Positions 2,168 to 12,244 of a stretch of 32,000 nt of DNA are shown here, one piece after another (position 1 is the stretch's first letter; each line of letters opens with the position of its first letter). Position numbers and translations under genes: made by a program. This DNA is from Ignavibacteriales bacterium (GTDB lineage: Bacteria > Bacteroidota > Ignavibacteria > Ignavibacteriales > Melioribacteraceae): the NCBI GenBank assembly GCA_027348115.1, contig DAIEQA010000212.1, forward strand, positions 1-32,000, given 5' to 3'. The notes beneath the pieces are model-generated. The model was not told the origin of the DNA. It saw nothing but the letters and a program-made list of their open reading frames with translations, and did no database searches.

Positions 2168-2806
2168 TTAATAATAGAATCTGAATCCGATGCGCATCAT
2201 TAATCCGCTCATATCAAATTTACGTTCGAATACTTTATTGCGGCCTGTCTGGGAATCCCGAACATCGTACTGCCAGCTTGGCTGAGAATAATGGTAATCG
2301 ATCTCGGCAAATACATCGGATCTTCTGCCGAGTTCGTAGGCAACACCGCCGCCAATGCGCCAGGCAAAATCGAAAGCGGCTTTAAATTCATTATTATCCG
2401 GGTTATCGTAATTTCTATAAAATATAAGAAGGGCCTCTACGCCCGCTGCGCCAGTAAAAAATGCTCTCATGCGCGGACCTACATCCCAGCTGCCGGTAAC
2501 ATTACCCATTAATGGAACCGCGTGCAGATTTGTTTTGGCCCTAAGTTCATTTAGCGTACTGTTCGGTCCAAAGAAGTCACTGAACTGGGAAACCAATTGT
2601 TGATCTACATAATTTTTATTGAACCAATCCGCGCTCCAGCCAACCATAAAATTATCGTCGATATTCCACCCGCCTTCATAACCGATGATGAACCCGGCAT
2701 CCGTTGCGCCCGGTGTAAATACGCCGAACTTTACGCTTCCATAATGGGGCTGTGCCGAAATCATCAAGGGCATACAAAGTATCGCCAAAGCTATTATTCG
2801 TTTCAT
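2168..2806 (-). CDS. outer-membrane beta-barrel protein (porin-family/OMP_b-brl-like)
   Basis: 212 aa. Signal peptide MKRIIALAILCMPLMISAQP, alternating aromatic/Gly-rich beta-strand pattern, and a C-terminal aromatic beta-signal (RIGFRFYY). Confidence 0.7.
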   Translation of the reverse strand: MKRIIALAILCMPLMISAQPHYGSVKFGVFTPGATDAGFIIGYEGGWNIDDNFMVGWSADWFNKNYVDQQLVSQFSDFFGPNSTLNELRAKTNLHAVPLMGNVTGSWDVGPRMRAFFTGAAGVEALLIFYRNYDNPDNNEFKAAFDFAWRIGGGVAYELGRRSDVFAEIDYHYSQPSWQYDVRDSQTGRNKVFERKFDMSGLMMRIGFRFYY

Positions 2807-2972
2807 TGTTATATCCCGTTTAATTTGACAGTAGGTTTAGGCAATTCAAATGCCAGTTTTATGTATTGTATTGCCGCTTATTTGGATGCATCAAACAGGT
2901 ATTTGTTCTACAAAGTAAACAATAGGACATGAATAATGTACACCGGCTTGAAAAATTTTCATGGCTTGTTAT

Positions 2973-3541
2973 CCCCGTCGTGAACGACGTGGCAGACAAC
3001 CCATCTATCCATCCGTATCGTTTACAATACGGTTAGAAGAGAACCAATCTAAGAGTTAAGTGGCTTTTGCACTACTCTTTTTTCGGCTAAAGCCGGTGAT
3101 ACTAATTATTTTATTCGTTAACTTTTGGTCGCGCAACAGTCATGGTATTCTTCAAATATCTACTTAACCGTATCATTTAAGATACGGTTACAGCGTCATT
3201 CATTAAGCATTCATGGGCTTTAGCCCAATTCTCTCTTTCGGCTAAAGCTGTTGAGTTTCTTCTATGCCTCACTAACTCAACCGTGAACGACGGAGTGGAT
3301 ATCATTATATGTTTATCAATCACGTAACGGTATCGGCGTTCTTCATGTCTGCCAAACCGCGTCATTTATGATACGGTTACAGCGTCATTCATTAAGCATT
3401 CATGGGCTTTTTAGCCCAACTCTCTTCGGTTAAAGCCGAGTGTCACCTCTGTATGCTGCCAACTCACATAAGCTACAACCATATCGTTTGCGATATGGTA
3501 CACCGGTAACCAGCACCAAGTCTATCCGGGCTTTAGCCCAA
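2973..3541. repeat. REP/BIME-like composite hairpin-repeat block A (core block about 3076-3541, plus leader hairpins at 2973-2992 and 3013-3032)
   Basis: Three hairpin families are arranged in a fixed order. H1 is GGGCTTTAGCCC or its complement CGGCTAAAGCCG. H2 is CCGTATC-ATTTA-GATACGG. H3 is NNCCG-TGAA-CGGNN. An internal ~85-bp unit occurs twice (3166-3250 and 3355-3437). The block aligns almost base for base with 3971-4491. Confidence 0.9.
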
Positions 3542-3990
3542 CTTACTTCCCGTATCGTGAATGAAAACTTCAAACTCTTCCGAGAAACCTTTTATTCTAT
3601 GATGCTCTGCCTGATTATCAATATATCTTCTAACTTTTTCCACGTGAGCATCGCTTACCGATGCAGCGTAGTATTCATTCGCCCATTCGAATTTTGTTGT
3701 AGTAATATGATTCTGATTAATCCAATGAGAAGCTTCGCCCTTGATTAGATTTACTACCTTAGAAAGATTTTGATCCGTGCCTAACGAAACAAGGCAGTGC
3801 AGATGATCGTGGTATCCATTGATGGAATCGATGAATATATTTTTTATCCGGCTGTTTTCTTTTATGTGATTAATAACTTTTGCGAGGATTTCATTTGTGA
3901 GGAAAGGGGCTCTGTTTTTTGTTCCGAATACAATGTGAACCCAGATTTTAACGAAGGACATAAAGACCTCCTCTGTTTCGGCTAAAGCCG
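3528..3990 (-). mobile_element. minimal IS200-like unit: tnpA bracketed by inverted H1 REP hairpins
   Basis: GGGCTTTAGCCCAA (3528-3541) lies at the gene's 3' end and CTCTGTTTCGGCTAAAGCCG (3971-3990) at its 5' end. The same two arms, in the same relative orientation, form the gene-less doublets at 3215-3250, 3404-3438, 4142-4177 and 4328-4363. Confidence 0.6.
3533..3961 (-). CDS. IS200/IS605-family Y1 (HUH) transposase TnpA-like / REP-associated tyrosine transposase (RAYT)
   Basis: 142 aa. N-terminus KIWVHIVFGTKNR, HUH motif in GYHDHLHCLV, catalytic-Tyr helix VRRYIDNQAEHH. The last codons (KLG-stop) are encoded by the H1 hairpin GGGCTTTAGCCCAA. Confidence 0.85.
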   Translation of the reverse strand: MSFVKIWVHIVFGTKNRAPFLTNEILAKVINHIKENSRIKNIFIDSINGYHDHLHCLVSLGTDQNLSKVVNLIKGEASHWINQNHITTTKFEWANEYYAASVSDAHVEKVRRYIDNQAEHHRIKGFSEEFEVFIHDTGSKLG

Positions 3991-4491
3991 GTGATACTAA
4001 TTATTTTATTCGTTAACTCCGTCGTGAACGACGGAGTTAATACCACTATACGTTTTGGTCGCGCAACAGTCATGGTATTCTTCAAATATCTACTGAACCG
4101 CCTCGTTTATGATACGGTTACCGCGTCTATCAAAAGTCTTTGGGCTTTAGCCCAATTCTCTCTTTCGGCTAAAGCTGTTGAGTCTCTTCTATGCCTCACT
4201 AACTCAACCGTGAACGAAGGAGTTGATATCACTATATGTTTATCAATCACGTAACGGCATCGGCGTTCTTCATATCTGCCAAACCGTATCATTTATGATA
4301 CGGTTACAGCGTCTATCAAAAGTCTTTGGGCTTTAGCCCAATTCTCTCTTTCGGCTAAAGCTGAGTGTCACCTCTGTATGCTGCCAACACTACCGTGAAC
4401 GGTAGTGTTGCCATCACATAAGCTACAACCATATCGTTTACGAGATGGTACACCGGCAACCATCACCGAGTCTATCCGGGCTTTAGCCCAA
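3971..4491. repeat. REP/BIME-like composite hairpin-repeat block B (direct repeat of block A)
   Basis: Collinear with 3076-3541. It has scattered substitutions, two extra hairpin modules (4018-4052 and 4389-4413) and one replaced linker segment. It ends in GGGCTTTAGCCCAA 6 nt before the methyltransferase stop codon. Confidence 0.9.
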
Positions 4492-4497
4492 TAGATC

Positions 4498-5937
4498 TTA
4501 TAACTCCAATTCTTCCTGGTGCGATCTCTTCCCCTTTTTAGCCGCGGCTTTAAAAGTAATATTCACCGATGGCAGTTTCGGTCTCTTATTCAAAAAATAT
4601 TCTTTCAATGTAAGAATCTGCAGCCGCGGATATTTGTATCCCGGAACATCTACAAACCCCGAAGCGGCAACTGTTTCCATCATCGGCTTTGTGGGATTCT
4701 CTATTGTTAAAAAAACTCCAAGCTGACATTTATGTTTATCCATTGCGCCTATAAGCGCATCAATATCTTTGGATTGAATATGCGTTCCTCCTTTTACCTG
4801 GAAAGCCGCTTTTATAGTTTCGTTTGAATTCGGATCGATAAGATACTGCCCTATTCCGTCAACGCCTTTATCCGCCCCCTTTGTGCCGAACGTTGTTGAG
4901 AATACCTCAAACTCCGTAAGCCACCAGTCCTGAAACGCGTTTGGATTTTGCTTCCACAATTCTTCCGCGCTCACTTCGTCAACAGGCACACCCCTTACTT
5001 CAAACGGATTTAATGATTTGCCGTACGTATCCTTTAGTCTTCTCTTAATCAGCGATATTGCTATTGGAGAAATATCAATTCCAATCCAGTTGCGGTGAAG
5101 CGATTCCGCCGCGTCTACAGTTGTTCCGCATCCGCAAAATCCGTCGAGCACAGTATCTCCTTCATTGCTGCTTGCCTTAATTATTCTTTCAAGCAATGTT
5201 TTTGGTTTTTGTGTTGGGTAACCTAGCCGTTCTTTTGCTTGTGAATTAATCACAGGAATATCCCATACATCATCTAAAGGTCTTCCGAGTGATTCATCCT
5301 CTGTCATTTTTGTTACTAATCTAACATCACCGTCGAACTCCACCAAACTTTTTTTACCTTTCCACCTTTTCAACGTCCCAGCGGATAGTTCTCCAAAAAT
5401 TGTATTAAAAGTATTCTCGCGATATTCTTTCGAATAGAATAATATTATATCGTGCATTCTTTGAAAATTCTTCTGAATGGCAGGCCATCTTTTATAATGC
5501 CAAGCAATTTCATTTCTAAATCCTTTTGCATCAAATATTATATCAAGCACAGTTTTTAAGTAATGACTCATCGTCGGGTCGCAGTGAAGATAAAAGCTGC
5601 CGGTAGGTTTAAGAACACGATGCAATTCAATTAAACGTAAGCTCATCATTACGAGATACGGAAAAGCGTGCGGCGCAACCTTTTGGTAAGTAAGCAAAAG
5701 ATAGAACAAATGTTCCGTCTTCATCGTATTCAGTTCGTTAAGTGAATCCTGGATATTCTTTAAAGTCCATGTGTCTTCAAATGCAATTCGCTGCGTTTGA
5801 ATTTCCTTATCGTCGAAGAAAATATTGTAATCGCGTTTACTGTTAAACGGCGGGTCGATATAGACGAGATCAACAGATTCGTCTTTAATGTTCTCCCGCA
5901 AAACATTAAGACAATCTCCCAGGTATAAGTAGTTCAT
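4498..5937 (-). CDS. DNA methyltransferase (beta-class N6-adenine/N4-cytosine) fused to a C-terminal Mrr-like restriction-endonuclease domain
   Basis: 479 aa. Motif IV (VDLVYIDPPFNS) is near the N-terminus and the AdoMet motif I (VLDGFCGCGTTVDAAE) at about residue 265, which is the beta-class order. The C-terminal ~150 aa carry a PD-(D/E)xK-like pattern (GADKGVDGIG ... AAFQVKGG ... GVFLT), as in Mrr_cat. Confidence 0.85.
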   Translation of the reverse strand: MNYLYLGDCLNVLRENIKDESVDLVYIDPPFNSKRDYNIFFDDKEIQTQRIAFEDTWTLKNIQDSLNELNTMKTEHLFYLLLTYQKVAPHAFPYLVMMSLRLIELHRVLKPTGSFYLHCDPTMSHYLKTVLDIIFDAKGFRNEIAWHYKRWPAIQKNFQRMHDIILFYSKEYRENTFNTIFGELSAGTLKRWKGKKSLVEFDGDVRLVTKMTEDESLGRPLDDVWDIPVINSQAKERLGYPTQKPKTLLERIIKASSNEGDTVLDGFCGCGTTVDAAESLHRNWIGIDISPIAISLIKRRLKDTYGKSLNPFEVRGVPVDEVSAEELWKQNPNAFQDWWLTEFEVFSTTFGTKGADKGVDGIGQYLIDPNSNETIKAAFQVKGGTHIQSKDIDALIGAMDKHKCQLGVFLTIENPTKPMMETVAASGFVDVPGYKYPRLQILTLKEYFLNKRPKLPSVNITFKAAAKKGKRSHQEELEL

Positions 5938-7690: not shown

Positions 7691-7718
7691 GTAGAGACGT
7701 TCGATCGAACGTCTCTAC
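7691..7718. repeat. REP hairpin, family 2 (GTAGAGACGTTCGATCGAACGTCTCTAC)
   Basis: Perfect 28-nt palindrome immediately upstream of the second RAYT. The same GTAGAGACG/CGTCTCTAC arms recur at 8278-8347 and 8597-8622, and the GAGACG core at 9820-9845. Confidence 0.85.
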
Positions 7719-7782
7719 AACATTAGATGACAAAATATAAAAACACATATCGAATTGAATCGGCTCGTTTAGAAACATGGGA

Positions 7783-8064
7783 TTTATCCCGTGAGATATA
7801 TTATGAGATATTTTTATGTATATGTATTAAAATCGAAAATAGACGGTAAATTTTATACCGGCTATACTAAGGATATTATTAGTAGAATTAAAGAGCATAA
7901 TCACGGCAAAGTATATTCTACAAAGAATAGAATACCTCTCAAACTAATTTATTGGGAGGGGTGTCTAAATCAAACGGATGCAACAAATCGAGAAAAATAT
8001 CTGAAAACCGCCTGGGGAAAGAGGTATATTAAAAATAGAATAAAAAATTATCTCACGGGATAAA
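7783..8064 (+). mobile_element. 282-bp insertion carrying a GIY-YIG ORF, bounded by perfect 16-bp inverted repeats
   Basis: TTTATCCCGTGAGATA (7783-7798) is the exact reverse complement of TATCTCACGGGATAAA (8049-8064). The segment separates the two halves of the RAYT reading frame. Confidence 0.75.
7803..8063 (+). CDS. small stand-alone GIY-YIG nuclease-family protein (UPF0213/YhbQ-like)
   Basis: 86 aa from ATG 7803 (the track starts at GTG 7791). Motifs: FYVYVLKS...GKFYTGYT (GIY...YIG), a conserved Arg in SRIKEHN, and NREKYLK (Glu). No DNA-binding extension is present. Confidence 0.85.
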   Translation: MRYFYVYVLKSKIDGKFYTGYTKDIISRIKEHNHGKVYSTKNRIPLKLIYWEGCLNQTDATNREKYLKTAWGKRYIKNRIKNYLTG

Positions 8065-8277
8065 CTCCCTGGTGGTATTACGTAACAATATGTACAAAAA
8101 AACATCTTGAATCGTTCGGAAAAATTGCAAATGCTGAAATGCATTTAAATGAATGCGGAATGATTGCATCAAAATGTTGGAAAGAAATTCCAAGTCATTT
8201 CCAAAATGCAGATTTAGATTATTATGTAATTATGCCGAATCATCTACATGGGATAATAATTATTAATCAAATAACCA

Positions 8278-8347
8278 GTAGAGACGTTGCACCCGTCTCG
8301 ACTCGGCTGGATGCGAGTCCAGACGAGGCGGAACGCAACGTCTCCAC
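8278..8347. repeat. nested REP-in-REP hairpin inside the RAYT coding sequence
   Basis: The outer arms GTAGAGACGTTGC / GCAACGTCTCCAC enclose an inner hairpin CGTCTCGACTCG-gctggatg-CGAGTCCAGACG. The element stays in frame and encodes SRDVAPVSTRLDASPDEAERNVST. Confidence 0.75.
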
Positions 8348-8596
8348 AAATAATTTTTATTCTGAAATTTCACCACGAAAAGGAACGCTTTCTGTAATAA
8401 TAAGATCATTCAAATCGGCATGTTCCAAAGAGATTCATGGTAAGACCCTTAATAATTTTGCATGGCAACCGCGTTTTTATGATAGAATTATTCGTAATGA
8501 AAAGGAATTGTACAATGTCAGGAAATATATTGAACTGAATCCTTTAAAATGGGAAATAGAAAAATTTGTACCGGAGAATATCGATTTATTCTAATG

Positions 8597-8622
8597 GTAG
8601 ACGTTGCATGCAACGTCTCTAC
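8597..8622. repeat. REP hairpin, family 2 (GTAGACGTTGCATGCAACGTCTCTAC)
   Basis: It begins 3 nt after the RAYT stop and has the same arms as 7691-7718, with a 2-nt bulge. The long ORF-track start at 8566 reads through it. Confidence 0.8.
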
Positions 8623-9853: not shown

Positions 9854-12244
9854 TTACGCGAGAGATTCTTTAGTTCTTCTGAAGGCGGAAATTATAAATC
9901 CCGCAGCCATTACAAGCACGCCTATCCATACAAGACTTATAAAGGGTTTAATGCTCGCCTCAACCGTCAACACTTCTCTTGGAGCGGATGAAGTATGCGA
10001 GGCGTTGAGCTTGGAAAATACAAGACTAACTTCCTTGCCGGTTGCATTCATGGAAGTTATGGATATTTTCAAATCGGCATCCTTGGATTCTGCCGGAAAA
10101 TACTGCGGGCCCTGTCCTTCATTCTGCATATACGGTTCGAGAGATTCTTCCTTGCCGTTATATTTTATTGTAAGATCGGCGCCGATCTTAAAGGTTCCGC
10201 CGCCCATCATAGCGGACATATCTTTTGGAAGATTAAATTTATTAAAGACAATTTCCTTGCCGTCGAATTCGAATTTATCGCCGCTCTTCATAGTAGCCGT
10301 TGTGCCTTCCGGTTTATCCTCGGCATTGTCGTAACCGAGAGGAGCCACATAAAAATCGTGTGTGAAGCCAACCAGTATATCGGGTTCGCGCATTAAGCTG
10401 TTGTTAAAATCCGCAACGAACATAACCGGTTTAACAACGGCGGCTTTATCGCCGGTTCTTACTTCAACATTGAAATGATATTTCTTGCCGTTATCGAAAG
10501 GTTCATAACCAAGAAATGTCAATTCATGTCCGAGCACATTAACCTTTTGACCCTTGACGAGATCAACTTGCTTTTGCGTCGATTCGCCGGCAGTGGCTAA
10601 AACTCCTATTAAGAAAAGTGCAATACCTATATGAGCAATGTAAGCTCCGAGAAAAGATTTTCTACCGGTAAAAATTTTGTACGCAATTTCCACGTTAACA
10701 AACAATGCAAATGCAGAAGAAAAGGTTAGCAGCGCGAGCATCGGCTGGTATACTTTGCCGAATATTATTACAAGCAATGTGAGAATTATTGCGGCTGTCA
10801 ACGAGAAGCGGGACTGCTTCCACAAATCTTTCCCTTCCGTGAATTTCCATTTAAGTAAAATACTCAAGCCGTTCAACAATCCGATAATAATTGCCAACGG
10901 AAGATTTAATTCGTTATAAAAACTTGTTTGCACCGTTTGGCCAAAGATTGGAGCCGAGGTACCTACGGCAACAATAATAGCGGAGGCAATTAAAGCAACG
11001 GAGCCGGTAAACAGGGCAAGCTCTCTCGACAAAACATTTTCTTCAAAAGTAAAATGTTCGGTTAGATATTTCCATCTGTATATTATTCCGCCGATGCCGA
11101 GAATTGCAAAAGCAGATAAGAAAATTATAAGGAAGAGATAAACCGCCATGCCTGGATCAACAAAGGAATGCACCGATGCGTCGCCGAGTATTCCGCTTCT
11201 TGTTAAGAATGTGCTGTAAAGAACAAGAACGTAAGTCATAATGCTTAAGATAAGATTCATCTTAACAAACCTGCTTCCACCGCCTTTTTCCTGCGTCTTC
11301 TTCTGCACAAGCATTGTATGAATAGAAGCAACTCCAACGAGCCACGGAACAAGACTAGAATTTTCTACGGGGTCCCATCCCCAGTAACCGCCCCATCCCA
11401 AAACTCCGTAAGCCCAGTAACCGCCGAGCATGATAGCGAAACCGAGTATACACGCGCCGGTTAGAATCCACGGCAAAGCTTGCTTAACCCAATCGCGGTA
11501 TTCGTTTTTTAAGATGGCGGCCATTGCAAACGCAAACGGAACGGCGCTCATCGAAAAACCTGTGAACAGCATAGGCGGATGAATCTGCATCCAAAAATTT
11601 TGCAGAAGCGGGTTTAATCCTTTCCCCTGGATAATAAAATTGTTCATGGAAATATTATTGGCCGTAAGCGTAGCGTATAATTCCTTTCCCATTTGTATGA
11701 ACTGCTTGTTCGATTGCGGATCGGAAAAAATAAAACTCTGCAATGCAGGCAAACTCAGATATGCCGAATTAATATTTTTTAGATCGAGAAAGTCTTTCTG
11801 CATCCAGATATAATTAAACGGCGACTTAAGCAGCGGACTTACCATAACAAGCAATGCGGAAAGAGATAAAGTAAAAACCATCATTACGCGCGGTTCAAGG
11901 TCGCCACGTTTAGATGTATAATCCAAAAGTATCAAACCGATTATCGCGGTGAAGAAAGTCCAGAGCATAAAGCTTCCTTCCTGGCCGGCGTAAAAAGTAG
12001 AAATTAACAAACCCGTAGGAAGACCGCTGCCGCTGTAATCATAAATATATTTGTACTCATATTGATGGGTTAGAACTGCGTAGAGCAGCATGGCCGCCGC
12101 CGCAATAACCATTATTGCCGTTGTGTGGTAACCGAAACGCGCAAGCTGCAAAGTATTTTTATAACCTTTGTAGGTTAGAAAATACATTACAACGGTAAAC
12201 ACTCCGGCCATCAATCCCAGAGTGAGAATAATATTTCCGATCAT
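9854..12244 (-). CDS. ccmF: cytochrome c-type biogenesis protein CcmF (heme lyase, System I), long form
   Basis: 796 aa and polytopic. WWD motif WGGYWGWDPVENSSLVPW. It lies downstream of ccmE in the same orientation. CAGGAG precedes the ATG. Confidence 0.9.
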   Translation of the reverse strand: MIGNIILTLGLMAGVFTVVMYFLTYKGYKNTLQLARFGYHTTAIMVIAAAAMLLYAVLTHQYEYKYIYDYSGSGLPTGLLISTFYAGQEGSFMLWTFFTAIIGLILLDYTSKRGDLEPRVMMVFTLSLSALLVMVSPLLKSPFNYIWMQKDFLDLKNINSAYLSLPALQSFIFSDPQSNKQFIQMGKELYATLTANNISMNNFIIQGKGLNPLLQNFWMQIHPPMLFTGFSMSAVPFAFAMAAILKNEYRDWVKQALPWILTGACILGFAIMLGGYWAYGVLGWGGYWGWDPVENSSLVPWLVGVASIHTMLVQKKTQEKGGGSRFVKMNLILSIMTYVLVLYSTFLTRSGILGDASVHSFVDPGMAVYLFLIIFLSAFAILGIGGIIYRWKYLTEHFTFEENVLSRELALFTGSVALIASAIIVAVGTSAPIFGQTVQTSFYNELNLPLAIIIGLLNGLSILLKWKFTEGKDLWKQSRFSLTAAIILTLLVIIFGKVYQPMLALLTFSSAFALFVNVEIAYKIFTGRKSFLGAYIAHIGIALFLIGVLATAGESTQKQVDLVKGQKVNVLGHELTFLGYEPFDNGKKYHFNVEVRTGDKAAVVKPVMFVADFNNSLMREPDILVGFTHDFYVAPLGYDNAEDKPEGTTATMKSGDKFEFDGKEIVFNKFNLPKDMSAMMGGGTFKIGADLTIKYNGKEESLEPYMQNEGQGPQYFPAESKDADLKISITSMNATGKEVSLVFSKLNASHTSSAPREVLTVEASIKPFISLVWIGVLVMAAGFIISAFRRTKESLA

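What the first reader, a model, noticed from the sequence alone, without database searches (positions are those of the whole stretch)
3528..3990. IS200-like tnpA sits exactly in the spacer of a REP doublet, so the gene-less doublets nearby look like its deletion derivatives
**Seen in sequence.** Four gene-less doublets (3215-3250, 3404-3438, 4142-4177, 4328-4363) share one form: GGGCTTTAGCCCAA-ttctctcttt-CGGCTAAAGC. Their two arms are reverse complements of each other.

The tnpA gene is bracketed by the same two arms in the same order. GGGCTTTAGCCCAA (3528-3541) overlaps its stop codon, and CTCTGTTTCGGCTAAAGCCG (3971-3990) lies just beyond its start. The whole unit is only about 463 bp.

**Established knowledge.** IS200/IS605 TnpA enzymes act on subterminal ssDNA hairpins. 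REP doublets (REPINs) have been proposed to derive from IS200-like ends.

**Inference.** This locus shows a putative parent and its miniature derivatives side by side. The putative autonomous unit is unusually small.
Basis: partly seen in the sequence, partly recalled or inferred. Interest (0 to 1): 0.65.

Follow-up and report, generated by a model that had tools for sequence, protein, structure and literature searches.

The report
Domesticated IS200-like transposase with cognate repeats
A single-copy, vertically inherited IS200-like transposase gene sits between two arms of a short palindromic repeat. It is surrounded by gene-less copies of that repeat, much like known REP/RAYT loci, but it uses a transposase subclass previously reported to have no such repeats.

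Summary
**Observation: confirmed.** GGCTTTAGCC and its complement occur 7 times in the window (0.01 expected), all between 3085 and 4488. One arm overlaps the tnpA stop codon and the other lies 18 nt before the start. An independent assembly agrees at 99.85%.

- Each arm is only the inner half of a two-part unit. Its partner is an 8-12 bp hairpin, about 22 nt further out, with a T(A/G)AA or TTYA loop.
- The locus is a direct duplication of a three-unit block (3075-3541 and 3970-4491) on either side of tnpA.

**The pattern holds across the family.** In 60 genomes the arm 10-mer is 80-fold denser within 700 nt of the homologous gene than elsewhere. Hairpin stems covary.

**The gene is not an active IS.** It is single-copy in all 60 genomes. 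Its neighbours are conserved within several clades, for example 18 Mucilaginibacter-type loci. The "463-bp autonomous IS" reading therefore fails.

**Gene-less doublets are scattered, but rare.**
- There is roughly one per 250 kb.
- At least 120 metagenome loci carry the arm-pair pattern and none has tnpA. 39 of them show the full hairpin-plus-arm architecture.
- None was detected elsewhere in the source organism.

**Best reading:** a REPtron-like locus built on TnpAY1 subclass 1.2, which the literature lists as having no REP. This is a new variant of a known kind. Whether the enzyme acts on these sites is inferred, not shown.

The parts
3533..3961 (-). tnpA: a 142-aa HUH/Y1 single-strand DNA transposase of the IS200-like class. 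Key motifs are HDHLH, Y113-IDN-Q117 and EHH.
   Evidence: - Pfam Y1_Tnp, E 3.6e-27.
- NCBIfam IS200 scores 67.6 bits (cut-off 55). REP_Tyr_transpos scores 32 bits (cut-off 80).
- The sequence aligns to IS608 TnpA with the HUH and catalytic Tyr/Gln columns matched.
- The AlphaFold model (pLDDT 87.8) best matches ISDra2 and IS608 TnpA.
- H53, H55, Y113, Q117 and H121 are at least 98% conserved across 53 intact homologues and invariant in a 38-sequence alignment.
3977..3990 (.). Inner arm B. It reads CGGCTTTAGCCGAA on the gene strand, and its 10-mer ends 18 nt before the ATG.
   Evidence: Exact B lies at -40 to -10 of the ATG in 25 of 60 family loci.
3528..3541 (.). Inner arm A. It reads TTGGGCTAAAGCCC on the gene strand, and the tnpA stop codon TAA is the loop of this mini-palindrome.
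   Evidence: The same stop-in-arm arrangement occurs in L010, L052, L054, L055, L058 and L062.
4013..4040 (.). Outer hairpin upstream of tnpA: TTAACTCCGTCG-TTCA-CGACGGAGTTAA on the gene strand. It has a 12-bp stem and lies 23 nt from arm B.
   Evidence: Inverted repeat I12, 100% complementary. The ssDNA fold is -16.2 kcal/mol, z -4.9.
3478..3499 (.). Outer hairpin downstream of tnpA: ACCATATCG-CAAA-CGATATGGT on the gene strand. It has a 9-bp stem and lies 29 nt from arm A.
   Evidence: (I8).
3215..3250 (.). Gene-less doublet (arm A and arm B head to head around an 8-nt spacer), in block 1.
   Evidence: As ssDNA, the two arms of a doublet (folded: the copy at 4142-4177) pair into one 12-bp hairpin at -9.4 kcal/mol, z -4.8.
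3404..3438 (.). Degenerate gene-less doublet in block 1. One arm has a 2-nt insertion, the other a G>T change, and the spacer is shortened.
4142..4177 (.). Gene-less doublet in block 2.
4328..4363 (.). Gene-less doublet in block 2.
3082..3095 (.). Solitary arm B that ends the array on the side away from the methylase.
   Evidence: (D9).
4478..4491 (.). Solitary arm A that ends the array, 7 nt from the stop codon of the methylase gene (4498-5937).
   Evidence: (D6).
3075..3541 (.). Block 1: three two-part repeat units (c, b, a when read on the + strand), located downstream of tnpA.
   Evidence: Direct-repeat families D1, D2, D5, D6, D9 and D10. In the alignment to block 2, two clean deletions (25 and 35 nt) remove exactly the TTCA-loop hairpins.
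3970..4491 (.). Block 2: the same three units, located upstream of tnpA between the gene and the methylase.
3165..3189 (.). Outer hairpin of the AACCGTATCA-TAAA-TGATACGGTT type. Copies, some imperfect, also lie at 3355-3379, 4096-4120 and 4282-4306.
   Evidence: (D3, I1-I5).
4379..4416 (.). Outer hairpin CAACACTACCG-TTCA-CGGTAGTGTTG. It is present in block 2 only and is deleted from block 1.
   Evidence: (I9).
2930..3075 (.). Degenerate remnant of older units. It holds hairpins at 3013-3035 and about 2975-2995 but no arms.
   Evidence: D3, D11, D13.

Best explanation
**What it is.** This is a REPtron-like locus. tnpA encodes a catalytically intact HUH/Y1 single-strand DNA endonuclease-ligase of the IS200-like class. 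It carries the signature of TnpAY1 subclass 1.2 (Y---Q--HH). The gene no longer moves as an insertion sequence: it is kept as one vertically inherited copy per genome.

**The cognate DNA site.** The site has two parts:
- an 8-12 bp hairpin whose loop reads T(A/G)AA on one strand and TTYA on the other;
- about 22 nt to one side, a mini-palindrome GGCT-WW-AGCC, called the "arm" here.

Two such units placed head to head with the arms inside form a gene-less doublet. The gene sits in exactly that central position. Units also stack tail to tail into BIME-like arrays.

**What happened at this locus.** A three-unit block was duplicated directly across tnpA. The copies have since diverged by about 6% in their aligned stretches and lost two hairpins by palindrome deletion. 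Within each block, spacers have become alike.

**Inferred mechanism (not shown).** When the DNA is single-stranded, for example on the lagging-strand template, TnpA binds the outer hairpin through its conserved loop and foot. It cuts and rejoins at the arm, which contains a CT dinucleotide at a fixed distance. This occasionally copies or moves a unit or a doublet. The result is local arrays next to the gene and a sparse scatter of doublets elsewhere in the genome.
For: **The enzyme looks active**
- Y1_Tnp, E 3.6e-27.
- The HUH, Tyr and Gln columns align with IS608 TnpA.
- H53, H55, Y113, Q117 and H121 are at least 98% conserved in 53 intact homologues that share only 45-68% identity with the window protein. 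They are invariant in a second 38-sequence alignment.
- The fold best matches ISDra2 and IS608 TnpA at E about 1e-8. TnpA-REP (4ER8) scores 2e-6.

**The gene is domesticated**
- There are 60 loci in 60 different genomes, never two in one.
- There is no second copy in the window.
- Flanking genes are conserved in 18 Mucilaginibacter-type loci and in five further clades.

**The site belongs with the gene**
- The arm 10-mer occurs at 1.49 per kb within 700 nt of the gene and 0.019 per kb elsewhere, an 80-fold difference.
- Its position is fixed: B at -20 to -30 of the ATG, A from -5 to +45 of the stop.
- Two Ignavibacteria loci carry a compensated variant, GCCCTTTAGGGC/GCCCTAAAGGGC, in the same positions.

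**The site is two-part**
- 81 of 106 A arms and 57 of 80 B arms have a hairpin at a median of 22 and 21 nt (interquartile range 20-24).
- Loops are TAAA or TGAA in 58 of the 81 A-side hairpins, and TTTA or TTCA in 49 of the 57 B-side hairpins.
- There are 47 and 32 distinct stems. Only 27% of random 75-nt windows have any hairpin.
- All 8 stem pairs show changes on both sides. The covariation score is 0.95, against 0.22 when shuffled and at most 0.19 when the pairing is slid.

**Doublets are dispersed**
- L049, L055 and L060 carry doublets 2-5 kb from the gene. In L049 and L055 the outer hairpin is the same genome-specific one that flanks tnpA.
- The L055 doublet is absent at the orthologous site in L052 and L058.
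- At least 120 metagenome loci (714 kb) hold the arm-pair pattern and none has a tnpA homologue. 39 of them have the full two-part architecture.

**Precedent.** Marinomonas REPtron Mb uses 5-bp-stem REPs with a TTTA loop that cluster beside their tnpA. TnpA-REP enzymes cut at CT (PMC8266576).
Against: - No biochemistry or excision data exist. Binding and cleavage are inferred.
- Dispersed copies are rare: 1 extra unit in 231 kb around metagenome doublets and 3 real sites in about 0.8 Mb of genome flanks. Classical REPIN populations number in the hundreds per genome.
- In the source organism, every contig that matches the units comes from this one locus. The other 30 kb of the window has no arm.
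- 11 of 60 family loci have no exact arm within 700 nt.
- The protein fails the NCBIfam REP-associated tyrosine transposase model, with 32 bits against a cut-off of 80. It also lacks the Y---NP motif and a GTAG tag.
- The covariation alignment was built from hairpins that had already passed a pairing filter, so its 96.5% paired figure is by construction.
Confidence: 0.6

Rival explanations
1. **First reader's view.** An unusually small (about 463 bp) but autonomous IS200-like insertion sequence whose ends are the two 14-nt arms. The neighbouring gene-less doublets are its internal-deletion (MITE/PATE-like) derivatives, made recently and locally.
For: - The protein passes the NCBIfam IS200/IS605 equivalog cut-off (67.6 against 55 bits).
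- Structurally it is closest to IS608 and ISDra2 TnpA.
- The arms bracket the gene tightly, and gene-less doublets have the same arms.
Against: - One copy per genome in 60 genomes, and none duplicated.
- The chromosomal position is fixed within clades.
- The two ends are inverted relative to each other, not direct on one strand as in IS200/IS605.
- The conserved unit extends about 50 nt beyond each arm to an outer hairpin.
- The four local doublets are two pairs created by a single block duplication.
- 0 of 120 doublet-bearing metagenome loci carry the gene.
Confidence: 0.06
2. **Host structural elements, not TnpA substrates.** The hairpin-plus-arm units are host elements that do not depend on TnpA for spread. 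They might be bidirectional terminators, mRNA stabilisers or protein-binding sites. The gene lies inside a doublet only because an ancestral IS200-like element preferentially inserted into such sites, as some ISs target REPs, and then became fixed.
For: - The dispersed doublet in L055 lies between convergent genes. REPs in other bacteria are known to affect transcripts (PMC3733652).
- Copy number is low.
- The scan pattern also picked up unrelated GTAG-tagged REPINs that contain the same 10-mer. The mini-palindrome is therefore not unique to this system.
Against: - The arms and hairpins accompany the gene in at least six different chromosomal contexts and three phyla. Arm-to-start and arm-to-stop distances are the same throughout.
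- Genome-specific hairpin stems are shared between the gene's flanks and the distant doublets.
- There is no T-run after the hairpins.
- The number of units beside the gene varies among syntenic genomes, which suggests local turnover.
Confidence: 0.2
3. **Artefact.** The repeat array comes from assembling a repetitive region, or from a chance cluster of short palindromes.
For: One Logan contig in run X3 joins a block-1-like sequence to block 2. This shows the repeats can confuse assembly or recombine.
Against: - Two independent assemblies agree at 99.85% with no gaps.
- The two blocks differ by about 6-11% and by clean indels, so they are distinct loci.
- The motif count is 7 against 0.01 expected.
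- The same architecture occurs in dozens of unrelated genomes.
Confidence: 0.01

Closest known systems
REPtrons / RAYT (TnpA-REP) with REP, BIME and REPIN elements (E. coli yafM, Pseudomonas, Stenotrophomonas, Marinomonas Mb)
   Same: - A single-copy, vertically inherited Y1 gene.
- The gene is flanked by its own palindromic repeats in inverted orientation.
- Head-to-head doublets and alternating arrays.
- Repeats concentrated beside the gene, as in Marinomonas Ma and Mb.
- Small stems with a TTTA loop are tolerated in Mb (PMC8266576; PMC6006769).
   Different: - The enzyme is class 1 (IS200-like, Y---Q--HH), not class 2 (Y---NP). It scores below the REP_Tyr_transpos cut-off.
- There is no GTAG tetranucleotide.
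- The repeat is two-part: a hairpin plus a mini-palindrome at a fixed spacing of about 22 nt.
- Genomic copy number is far lower, about 1 per 250 kb.
TnpAY1 subclass 1.2 (Quentin et al. 2018, PMC6006769); possibly the same group as "IS200 Group 3" of Bertels et al. 2017 (PMC5581495)
   Same: - The Y---Q--HH motif (YIDNQAEHH here).
- About 148 aa, with a tail of about 30 aa after the Tyr motif.
- Low copy number.
- Bacteroidetes distribution.
- No IS behaviour.
- Bertels' Group 3: no duplicates, none on plasmids, and flanking 16-mers repeated about 21 times per replicon.
   Different: [quoted passage not shown] Here, conserved flanking arms and hairpins are found in most of 60 genomes.
- The window protein has DHLH and W-A where the published consensus has DH[IV]H and WQ. 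The Mucilaginibacter members do have WQ.
- Equivalence with Bertels' Group 3 is my inference and was not tested.
IS200/IS605 insertion sequences (IS200, IS608, ISDra2) and their gene-less PATE/MITE derivatives
   Same: The closest sequence and fold. Hairpins at a fixed distance from a short conserved site recall the hairpin-plus-cleavage-site ends of IS608. The gene-less forms resemble PATEs.
   Different: - The ends are inverted, not direct.
- Single copy at a fixed locus.
- No tnpB.
- No identifiable target tetranucleotide or element boundary.
CGTC-tagged REPs (Di Nocera et al. 2013, PMC3733652)
   Same: 8-9 bp stems with 4-5 nt loops, mostly head-to-head dimers. They are present in Bacteroidetes and Chlorobi and are reported to lack a dedicated transposase. 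Many hairpins here begin CCGTC.
   Different: In the published families CGTC is an unpaired tag, and the first stem positions are A/T. Here CCGT(C/T) is base-paired, and the stem foot is C-C/G-G. I could not compare consensus sequences because the figures are not held. This is a lead only.

Membership tests
IS200/IS605 insertion sequence (active, autonomous) | Encodes a TnpA with an HUH motif and a catalytic Tyr (Y1_Tnp). | tested here: met
IS200/IS605 insertion sequence (active, autonomous) | Several near-identical copies per genome, at variable locations. | tested here: not met
   One locus per genome in 60 genomes. Conserved synteny within clades. No second copy in the window.
IS200/IS605 insertion sequence (active, autonomous) | Left- and right-end subterminal hairpins alike and in the same orientation on one strand. 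| tested here: not met
   On the gene strand, the upstream hairpins and arm carry TTYA loops and the downstream ones carry TRAA loops. The ends are therefore reverse complements of each other.
REPtron (RAYT/TnpA-REP plus REP) | A single-copy, chromosomally stable Y1 gene. | tested here: met
REPtron (RAYT/TnpA-REP plus REP) | The gene is flanked by palindromic repeats in inverted orientation, including doublets. | tested here: met
REPtron (RAYT/TnpA-REP plus REP) | The same repeats are dispersed through the host genome in many copies. | tested here: inconclusive
   Dispersed doublets exist in L049, L055 and L060 and in metagenomes without the gene. However, they occur only about once per 250 kb, and none was found elsewhere in the source organism. 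Whole genomes could not be scanned.
REPtron (RAYT/TnpA-REP plus REP) | The protein belongs to the TnpA-REP class (Y---NP motif, REP_Tyr_transpos model). | tested here: not met
   32 bits against a cut-off of 80. The motif is YIDNQ, not Y---NP. 4ER8 ranks below the IS608 and ISDra2 structures.
REPtron (RAYT/TnpA-REP plus REP) | A GT[AG]G tetranucleotide at the foot of the REP hairpin. | tested here: not met
   Hairpin flanks read TTAn on the 5' side and CAAT or TTAT on the 3' side.
REPtron (RAYT/TnpA-REP plus REP) | The enzyme binds and cleaves its single-stranded REP. | not testable with these tools
   This needs purified protein and oligonucleotide assays.
TnpAY1 subclass 1.2 (Quentin 2018) | The Tyr motif Y---Q--HH. 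| tested here: met
   YIDNQAEHH. Y113, Q117 and H121 are at least 98% conserved and invariant in a second alignment, where H120 is at least 90% conserved.
TnpAY1 subclass 1.2 (Quentin 2018) | About 148 aa with a conserved C-terminal tail; low intragenomic copy number; Cyanobacteria and Bacteroidetes. | tested here: met
   142 aa, with 29 residues after Y113. Single copy. The genomes are Bacteroidota, Ignavibacteriota and one Acidobacteriota. The authors' own HMM was not available, so assignment rests on the signature only.
TnpAY1 subclass 1.2 (Quentin 2018) | No associated REP or terminal hairpins, as described in the paper. | tested here: not met
   Conserved arms and hairpins flank the gene in most loci. 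This is where the present result departs from the published description.

The most novel reading that the evidence does not exclude
An unrecognised REPIN/RAYT-type partnership exists in Bacteroidota, Ignavibacteriota and some Acidobacteriota. It is founded on an IS200-like class-1 enzyme (subclass 1.2) rather than a class-2 RAYT. It uses a two-part substrate: a hairpin with a conserved loop, plus a GGCT-WW-AGCC mini-palindrome at a fixed spacing of about 22 nt. That would make subclass 1.2 either a second, independent domestication of an IS200 transposase or the surviving intermediate between IS200 elements and RAYTs. It would also show a transposase gene still sitting in the centre of its own doublet, which is the arrangement the REPIN-origin hypothesis predicts.
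Probability: 0.45. Interest if true: 0.7.

Novelty: new variant of a known kind. Interest (0 to 1): 0.55.

Why it matters
**Link to REPIN origins.** REPINs are thought to descend from the ends of an IS200-like element that lost its gene, but the known RAYTs are already far from IS200. In this family the enzyme is still IS200-like in sequence and fold. It behaves like a domesticated gene and sits exactly where the lost gene of a doublet would have been. The origin hypothesis can therefore be tested directly, by asking whether this enzyme cuts at the arms and whether hairpin plus arm is sufficient.

**Correction to the literature.** The published description lists subclass 1.2 as lacking REPs. 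That search relied on GTAG-tagged descriptors, which these repeats would not match.

**Practical value.** The strictly conserved 10-mer and the fixed spacing give a simple search pattern for annotating these elements in Bacteroidota genomes.

Tried and rejected
- **Rfam:** no family matches anywhere in the window at gathering thresholds. A known structured RNA is not the explanation.
- **Literature search for the 10-mer:** it appears only in primers and unrelated constructs.
- **Xer/dif-like or lox-like recombinase core site (12-8-12).** The doublet has that geometry. I rejected this because tnpA splits the "site" in two, no tyrosine recombinase is adjacent, and the spacer between arms varies from 8 to 30 nt in length and in sequence.
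- **MITE with terminal inverted repeats and target-site duplications** (units read as arm ... arm). The inter-unit spacers are not duplications of each other and extend the arm consensus. The hairpin-plus-arm reading fits the fixed spacing better.
- **Copy number from read depth.** Logan contigs of four mine-drainage runs give only 1-2x the organism's baseline over the units. All matching pieces trace to the two local blocks.
- **Metatranscriptomes of the same study:** they hold none of the sequence, so transcription could not be assessed.
- **A remnant of a second tnpA**, expected from a simple tandem duplication: none found.
- **CGTC-tagged REP membership:** considered and left as a lead only.
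- **Whole-genome counts:** not possible.
Full report
**1.

Reading 2800-4800 confirms every coordinate in the finding.
- GGGCTTTAGCCCAA lies at 3528-3541. It contains the stop codon of the minus-strand ORF 3533-3961.
- CTCTGTTTCGGCTAAAGCCG lies at 3971-3990, 18 nt beyond the ATG.
- Doublets lie at 3215-3250, 4142-4177 and 4328-4363, with a degenerate one at 3404-3438.

The 10-mer GGCTTTAGCC occurs 7 times on the two strands against 0.01 expected, and only between 3085 and 4488. The 14-mer with up to 2 mismatches gives 9 hits against 0.24 expected.

An independent ENA contig from another sample (L001) is colinear with window 2805-5454. It shows 4 mismatches and no gaps, so the architecture is not an assembly artefact.

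The source is a low-abundance organism in mine-drainage metagenomes. Its GC content is 40%. The nearest TnpA relatives are in Melioribacter MAGs.

**2.

- Two more solitary arms close the array, at 3082-3095 and 4478-4491.
- The doublets are not four independent elements. A block of three units is present twice in direct orientation, at 3075-3541 and 3970-4491, with tnpA between the copies (D1, D2, D5, D6, D9, D10; alignment).
- The blocks differ in three ways:
  - scattered substitutions;
  - two clean deletions of 25 and 35 nt that remove exactly two hairpins;
  - a 22-nt spacer that is the same in two units of one block but different between blocks, which indicates homogenisation within a block.
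- No remnant of a second tnpA exists in the window.
- Each arm is accompanied, 23-29 nt further from the gene, by a much stronger hairpin. Upstream of tnpA this is TTAACTCCGTCG-TTCA-CGACGGAGTTAA (4013-4040). Downstream it is ACCATATCG-CAAA-CGATATGGT (3478-3499). AACCGTATCA-TAAA-TGATACGGTT recurs in the other units.
- As single-stranded DNA these hairpins fold strongly (z -3.3 to -4.9). A doublet's two arms pair with each other into one 12-bp hairpin at -9.4 kcal/mol, z -4.8.

**3. The protein**

- The ORF is a Y1_Tnp protein, E 3.6e-27.
- NCBIfam places it above the IS200/IS605 cut-off (67.6 against 55 bits). It falls well below the REP-associated tyrosine transposase cut-off (32 against 80 bits).
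- It aligns to IS608 TnpA with HUH (HDHLH), the catalytic Tyr (Y113) and the Gln four residues later in register.
- An AlphaFold model (pLDDT 87.8) best matches ISDra2 and IS608 TnpA at E about 1e-8 and TM 0.65-0.72. E. coli TnpA-REP (4ER8) follows at 2e-6.
- Across 53 intact homologues that share 45-68% identity with the window protein, H53, H55, Y113, Q117 and H121 are at least 98% conserved. They are invariant in a second 38-sequence alignment.
- The motif YIDNQAEHH is the Y---Q--HH signature that Quentin et al. use to define TnpAY1 subclass 1.2. [quoted passage not shown]
- Bertels et al. describe an "IS200 Group 3" with no duplicates, no plasmid copies and flanking 16-mers repeated about 21 times per replicon (PMC5581495). 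That the two groups are the same is my inference.

**4. The gene is not a mobile IS**

A scan of one genome per species found 60 loci, each in a different genome. These genomes are Bacteroidota (Mucilaginibacter, Chitinophagaceae, Flavobacteriales, Paludibacter, Sediminibacterium), Ignavibacteria/Melioribacter and one Pyrinomonadaceae.

I clustered the flanking ORFs to test for synteny. The gene lies between the same neighbours in 18 Mucilaginibacter-type loci and in five other clades. In the Melioribacter clade it follows a Type ISP/Eco57I-like gene. In the window it follows a different N6/N4 methylase with an Mrr-like C-terminus.

Single copy plus conserved position is the profile of a domesticated transposase.

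**5. The arms and hairpins belong to the gene family**

- In the 60 loci the arm 10-mer occurs at 1.49 per kb within 700 nt of the gene and 0.019 per kb elsewhere, an 80-fold difference. 49 of 60 loci have at least one exact arm nearby.
- The position is stereotyped. GGCTTTAGCC lies 20-30 nt before the ATG (25 exact cases). GGCTAAAGCC lies from -5 to +45 of the stop. In seven loci, as in the window, the stop codon is the TAA inside the arm.
- Two Ignavibacteria loci have GCCCTTTAGGGC and GCCCTAAAGGGC in the same positions, a compensated version of the mini-palindrome.
- Outside the arms, 81 of 106 A arms and 57 of 80 B arms are followed or preceded by a hairpin at a median of 22 or 21 nt (interquartile range 20-24).
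- The hairpin loops are TAAA or TGAA on one side and TTTA or TTCA on the other. There are 47 and 32 different stem sequences. Only 27% of random 75-nt windows contain any hairpin of that size, and almost none have these loops.
- On an ungapped alignment of 61 distinct hairpins, all eight stem pairs change on both sides. The covariation score is 0.95, against 0.22 shuffled and at most 0.19 with slid partners.
- Caveat: these hairpins were selected for pairing, so the percentage paired is by construction. The diversity of stems under a constant loop and spacing is not.

**6. Gene-less doublets elsewhere**

- In L049 and L055, doublets 4-5 kb from the gene have the form hairpin - about 25 nt - B - 18-20 nt - A - about 25 nt - hairpin. 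They use the same genome-specific stem that flanks tnpA in that genome. L060 carries a related cluster of arms and hairpins about 2 kb from the gene.
- The L055 doublet lies between convergent genes. It is absent from the orthologous site in L052 (the genes overlap) and L058 (43 nt). This is a presence/absence polymorphism.
None of these loci (714 kb) encodes a homologue of the gene.
- 39 of the 120 have the full two-part architecture, including a GC-rich, Acidobacteria-like series.
- Others are ordinary GTAG-tagged REPINs that happen to contain the 10-mer. I exclude these.
- Density is low: one further complete unit in 231 kb around those 39 doublets. In the tnpA-bearing genome loci, three real dispersed sites fall in about 0.8 Mb lying more than 700 nt from the gene.
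- In the source organism I found no other copy. The remaining 30 kb of the window has none. All contigs of four runs that match block 2 derive from the two local blocks.

**7. Interpretation**

The locus works like a REPtron: a stable Y1 gene embedded in its own palindromic repeats, arranged as inverted pairs and alternating arrays.

It fails membership of the RAYT/TnpA-REP family on three tested features: the protein class, the Y---NP motif and the GTAG tag. It also fails membership of active IS200/IS605 elements on copy number, mobility and end orientation.

It fits TnpAY1 subclass 1.2 by signature, but it contradicts the published statement that this subclass has no associated repeats. That statement rested on a search built around GT[AG]G-tagged descriptors plus manual inspection of other subclasses.

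The proposed mechanism is inference:
- TnpA recognises the hairpin on single-stranded DNA.
- It then cuts and rejoins at the arm, about 22 nt away.

The inference is modelled on IS608 and on TnpA-REP enzymes. Those enzymes cut at CT near small hairpins, including a 5-bp-stem, TTTA-loop REP in Marinomonas whose copies also cluster beside the gene (PMC8266576).

**8.

The central intuition, that the gene sits where the spacer of a doublet would be, is borne out across the family. The "unusually small autonomous unit" is not. The functional unit is larger than the arms, the gene does not move, and the neighbouring doublets largely reflect one block duplication.

**9. Also in the window**

A second, class-2 RAYT-like gene lies about 4.2 kb from tnpA, with its own different, GTAG-tagged palindromes. 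This fits the rule that each Y1 gene keeps its own repeat family.

Noticed in passing
window 7691-8622: **A second Y1 gene.** ORF 8139-8594 (+) is RAYT-like, with NHLH, WQPRFYD and YIELNP. It scores 54 bits against NCBIfam REP_Tyr_transpos (cut-off 80) and matches 4ER8 at E 1e-3.

It is flanked by "double-foot" GTAG...CTAC palindromes at 7691-7718 and 8596-8622. Their centres differ by compensatory changes (TCGATCGA against TGCATGCA). The pattern matches 3 times against 0.02 expected.
   Followed up: partly
window 7791-8138: The RAYT-like gene's N-terminal strand (YYVTICT) is encoded in frame at about 8067-8138 but has no start codon. It begins directly after the stop codon of the 90-aa GIY-YIG ORF (7791-8063). 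This is either a GIY-YIG/Y1 fusion split by a stop codon, or a RAYT truncated by insertion of the GIY-YIG gene.
   Followed up: partly
window 3437/4363 (run X3): One 238-nt Logan contig joins a block-1-like b/a junction to the a unit of block 2. This could be a deletion allele lacking tnpA and one block, produced by recombination between the direct repeats. It could also be gene conversion. The contig is too short to tell which.
   Followed up: partly
window 4017-4053 and 4389-4413 compared with block 1: The two indels between the blocks remove exactly one hairpin each (35 and 25 nt) and leave one stem arm behind. This is the signature of palindrome deletion by slippage. Contigs from block 1 show the same skips when laid on block 2.
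   Followed up: yes
window 4498-5937; L005, L007, L008: In the window and in three Melioribacter-type genomes, the tnpA lies just downstream of a restriction-modification gene. Here that gene is an N6_N4 methylase with an Mrr_cat domain; there it is a Type ISP/Eco57I-like enzyme. The enzymes differ but the neighbourhood is similar. The reason is unknown.
   Followed up: partly
L179 745-1332: A metagenome contig carries three tandem units of about 280 bp. Each has a hairpin-B-A-hairpin doublet, so it forms an array like the one in the window but without any tnpA on the contig.
   Followed up: no
L027 and L063, around 9970-10450: Two Ignavibacteria family members use GCCCTTTAGGGC/GCCCTAAAGGGC instead of GGCTTTAGCC/GGCTAAAGCC. 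The downstream copy lies inside the coding region just before the stop codon. This is a natural compensatory variant that would be useful for specificity tests.
   Followed up: partly
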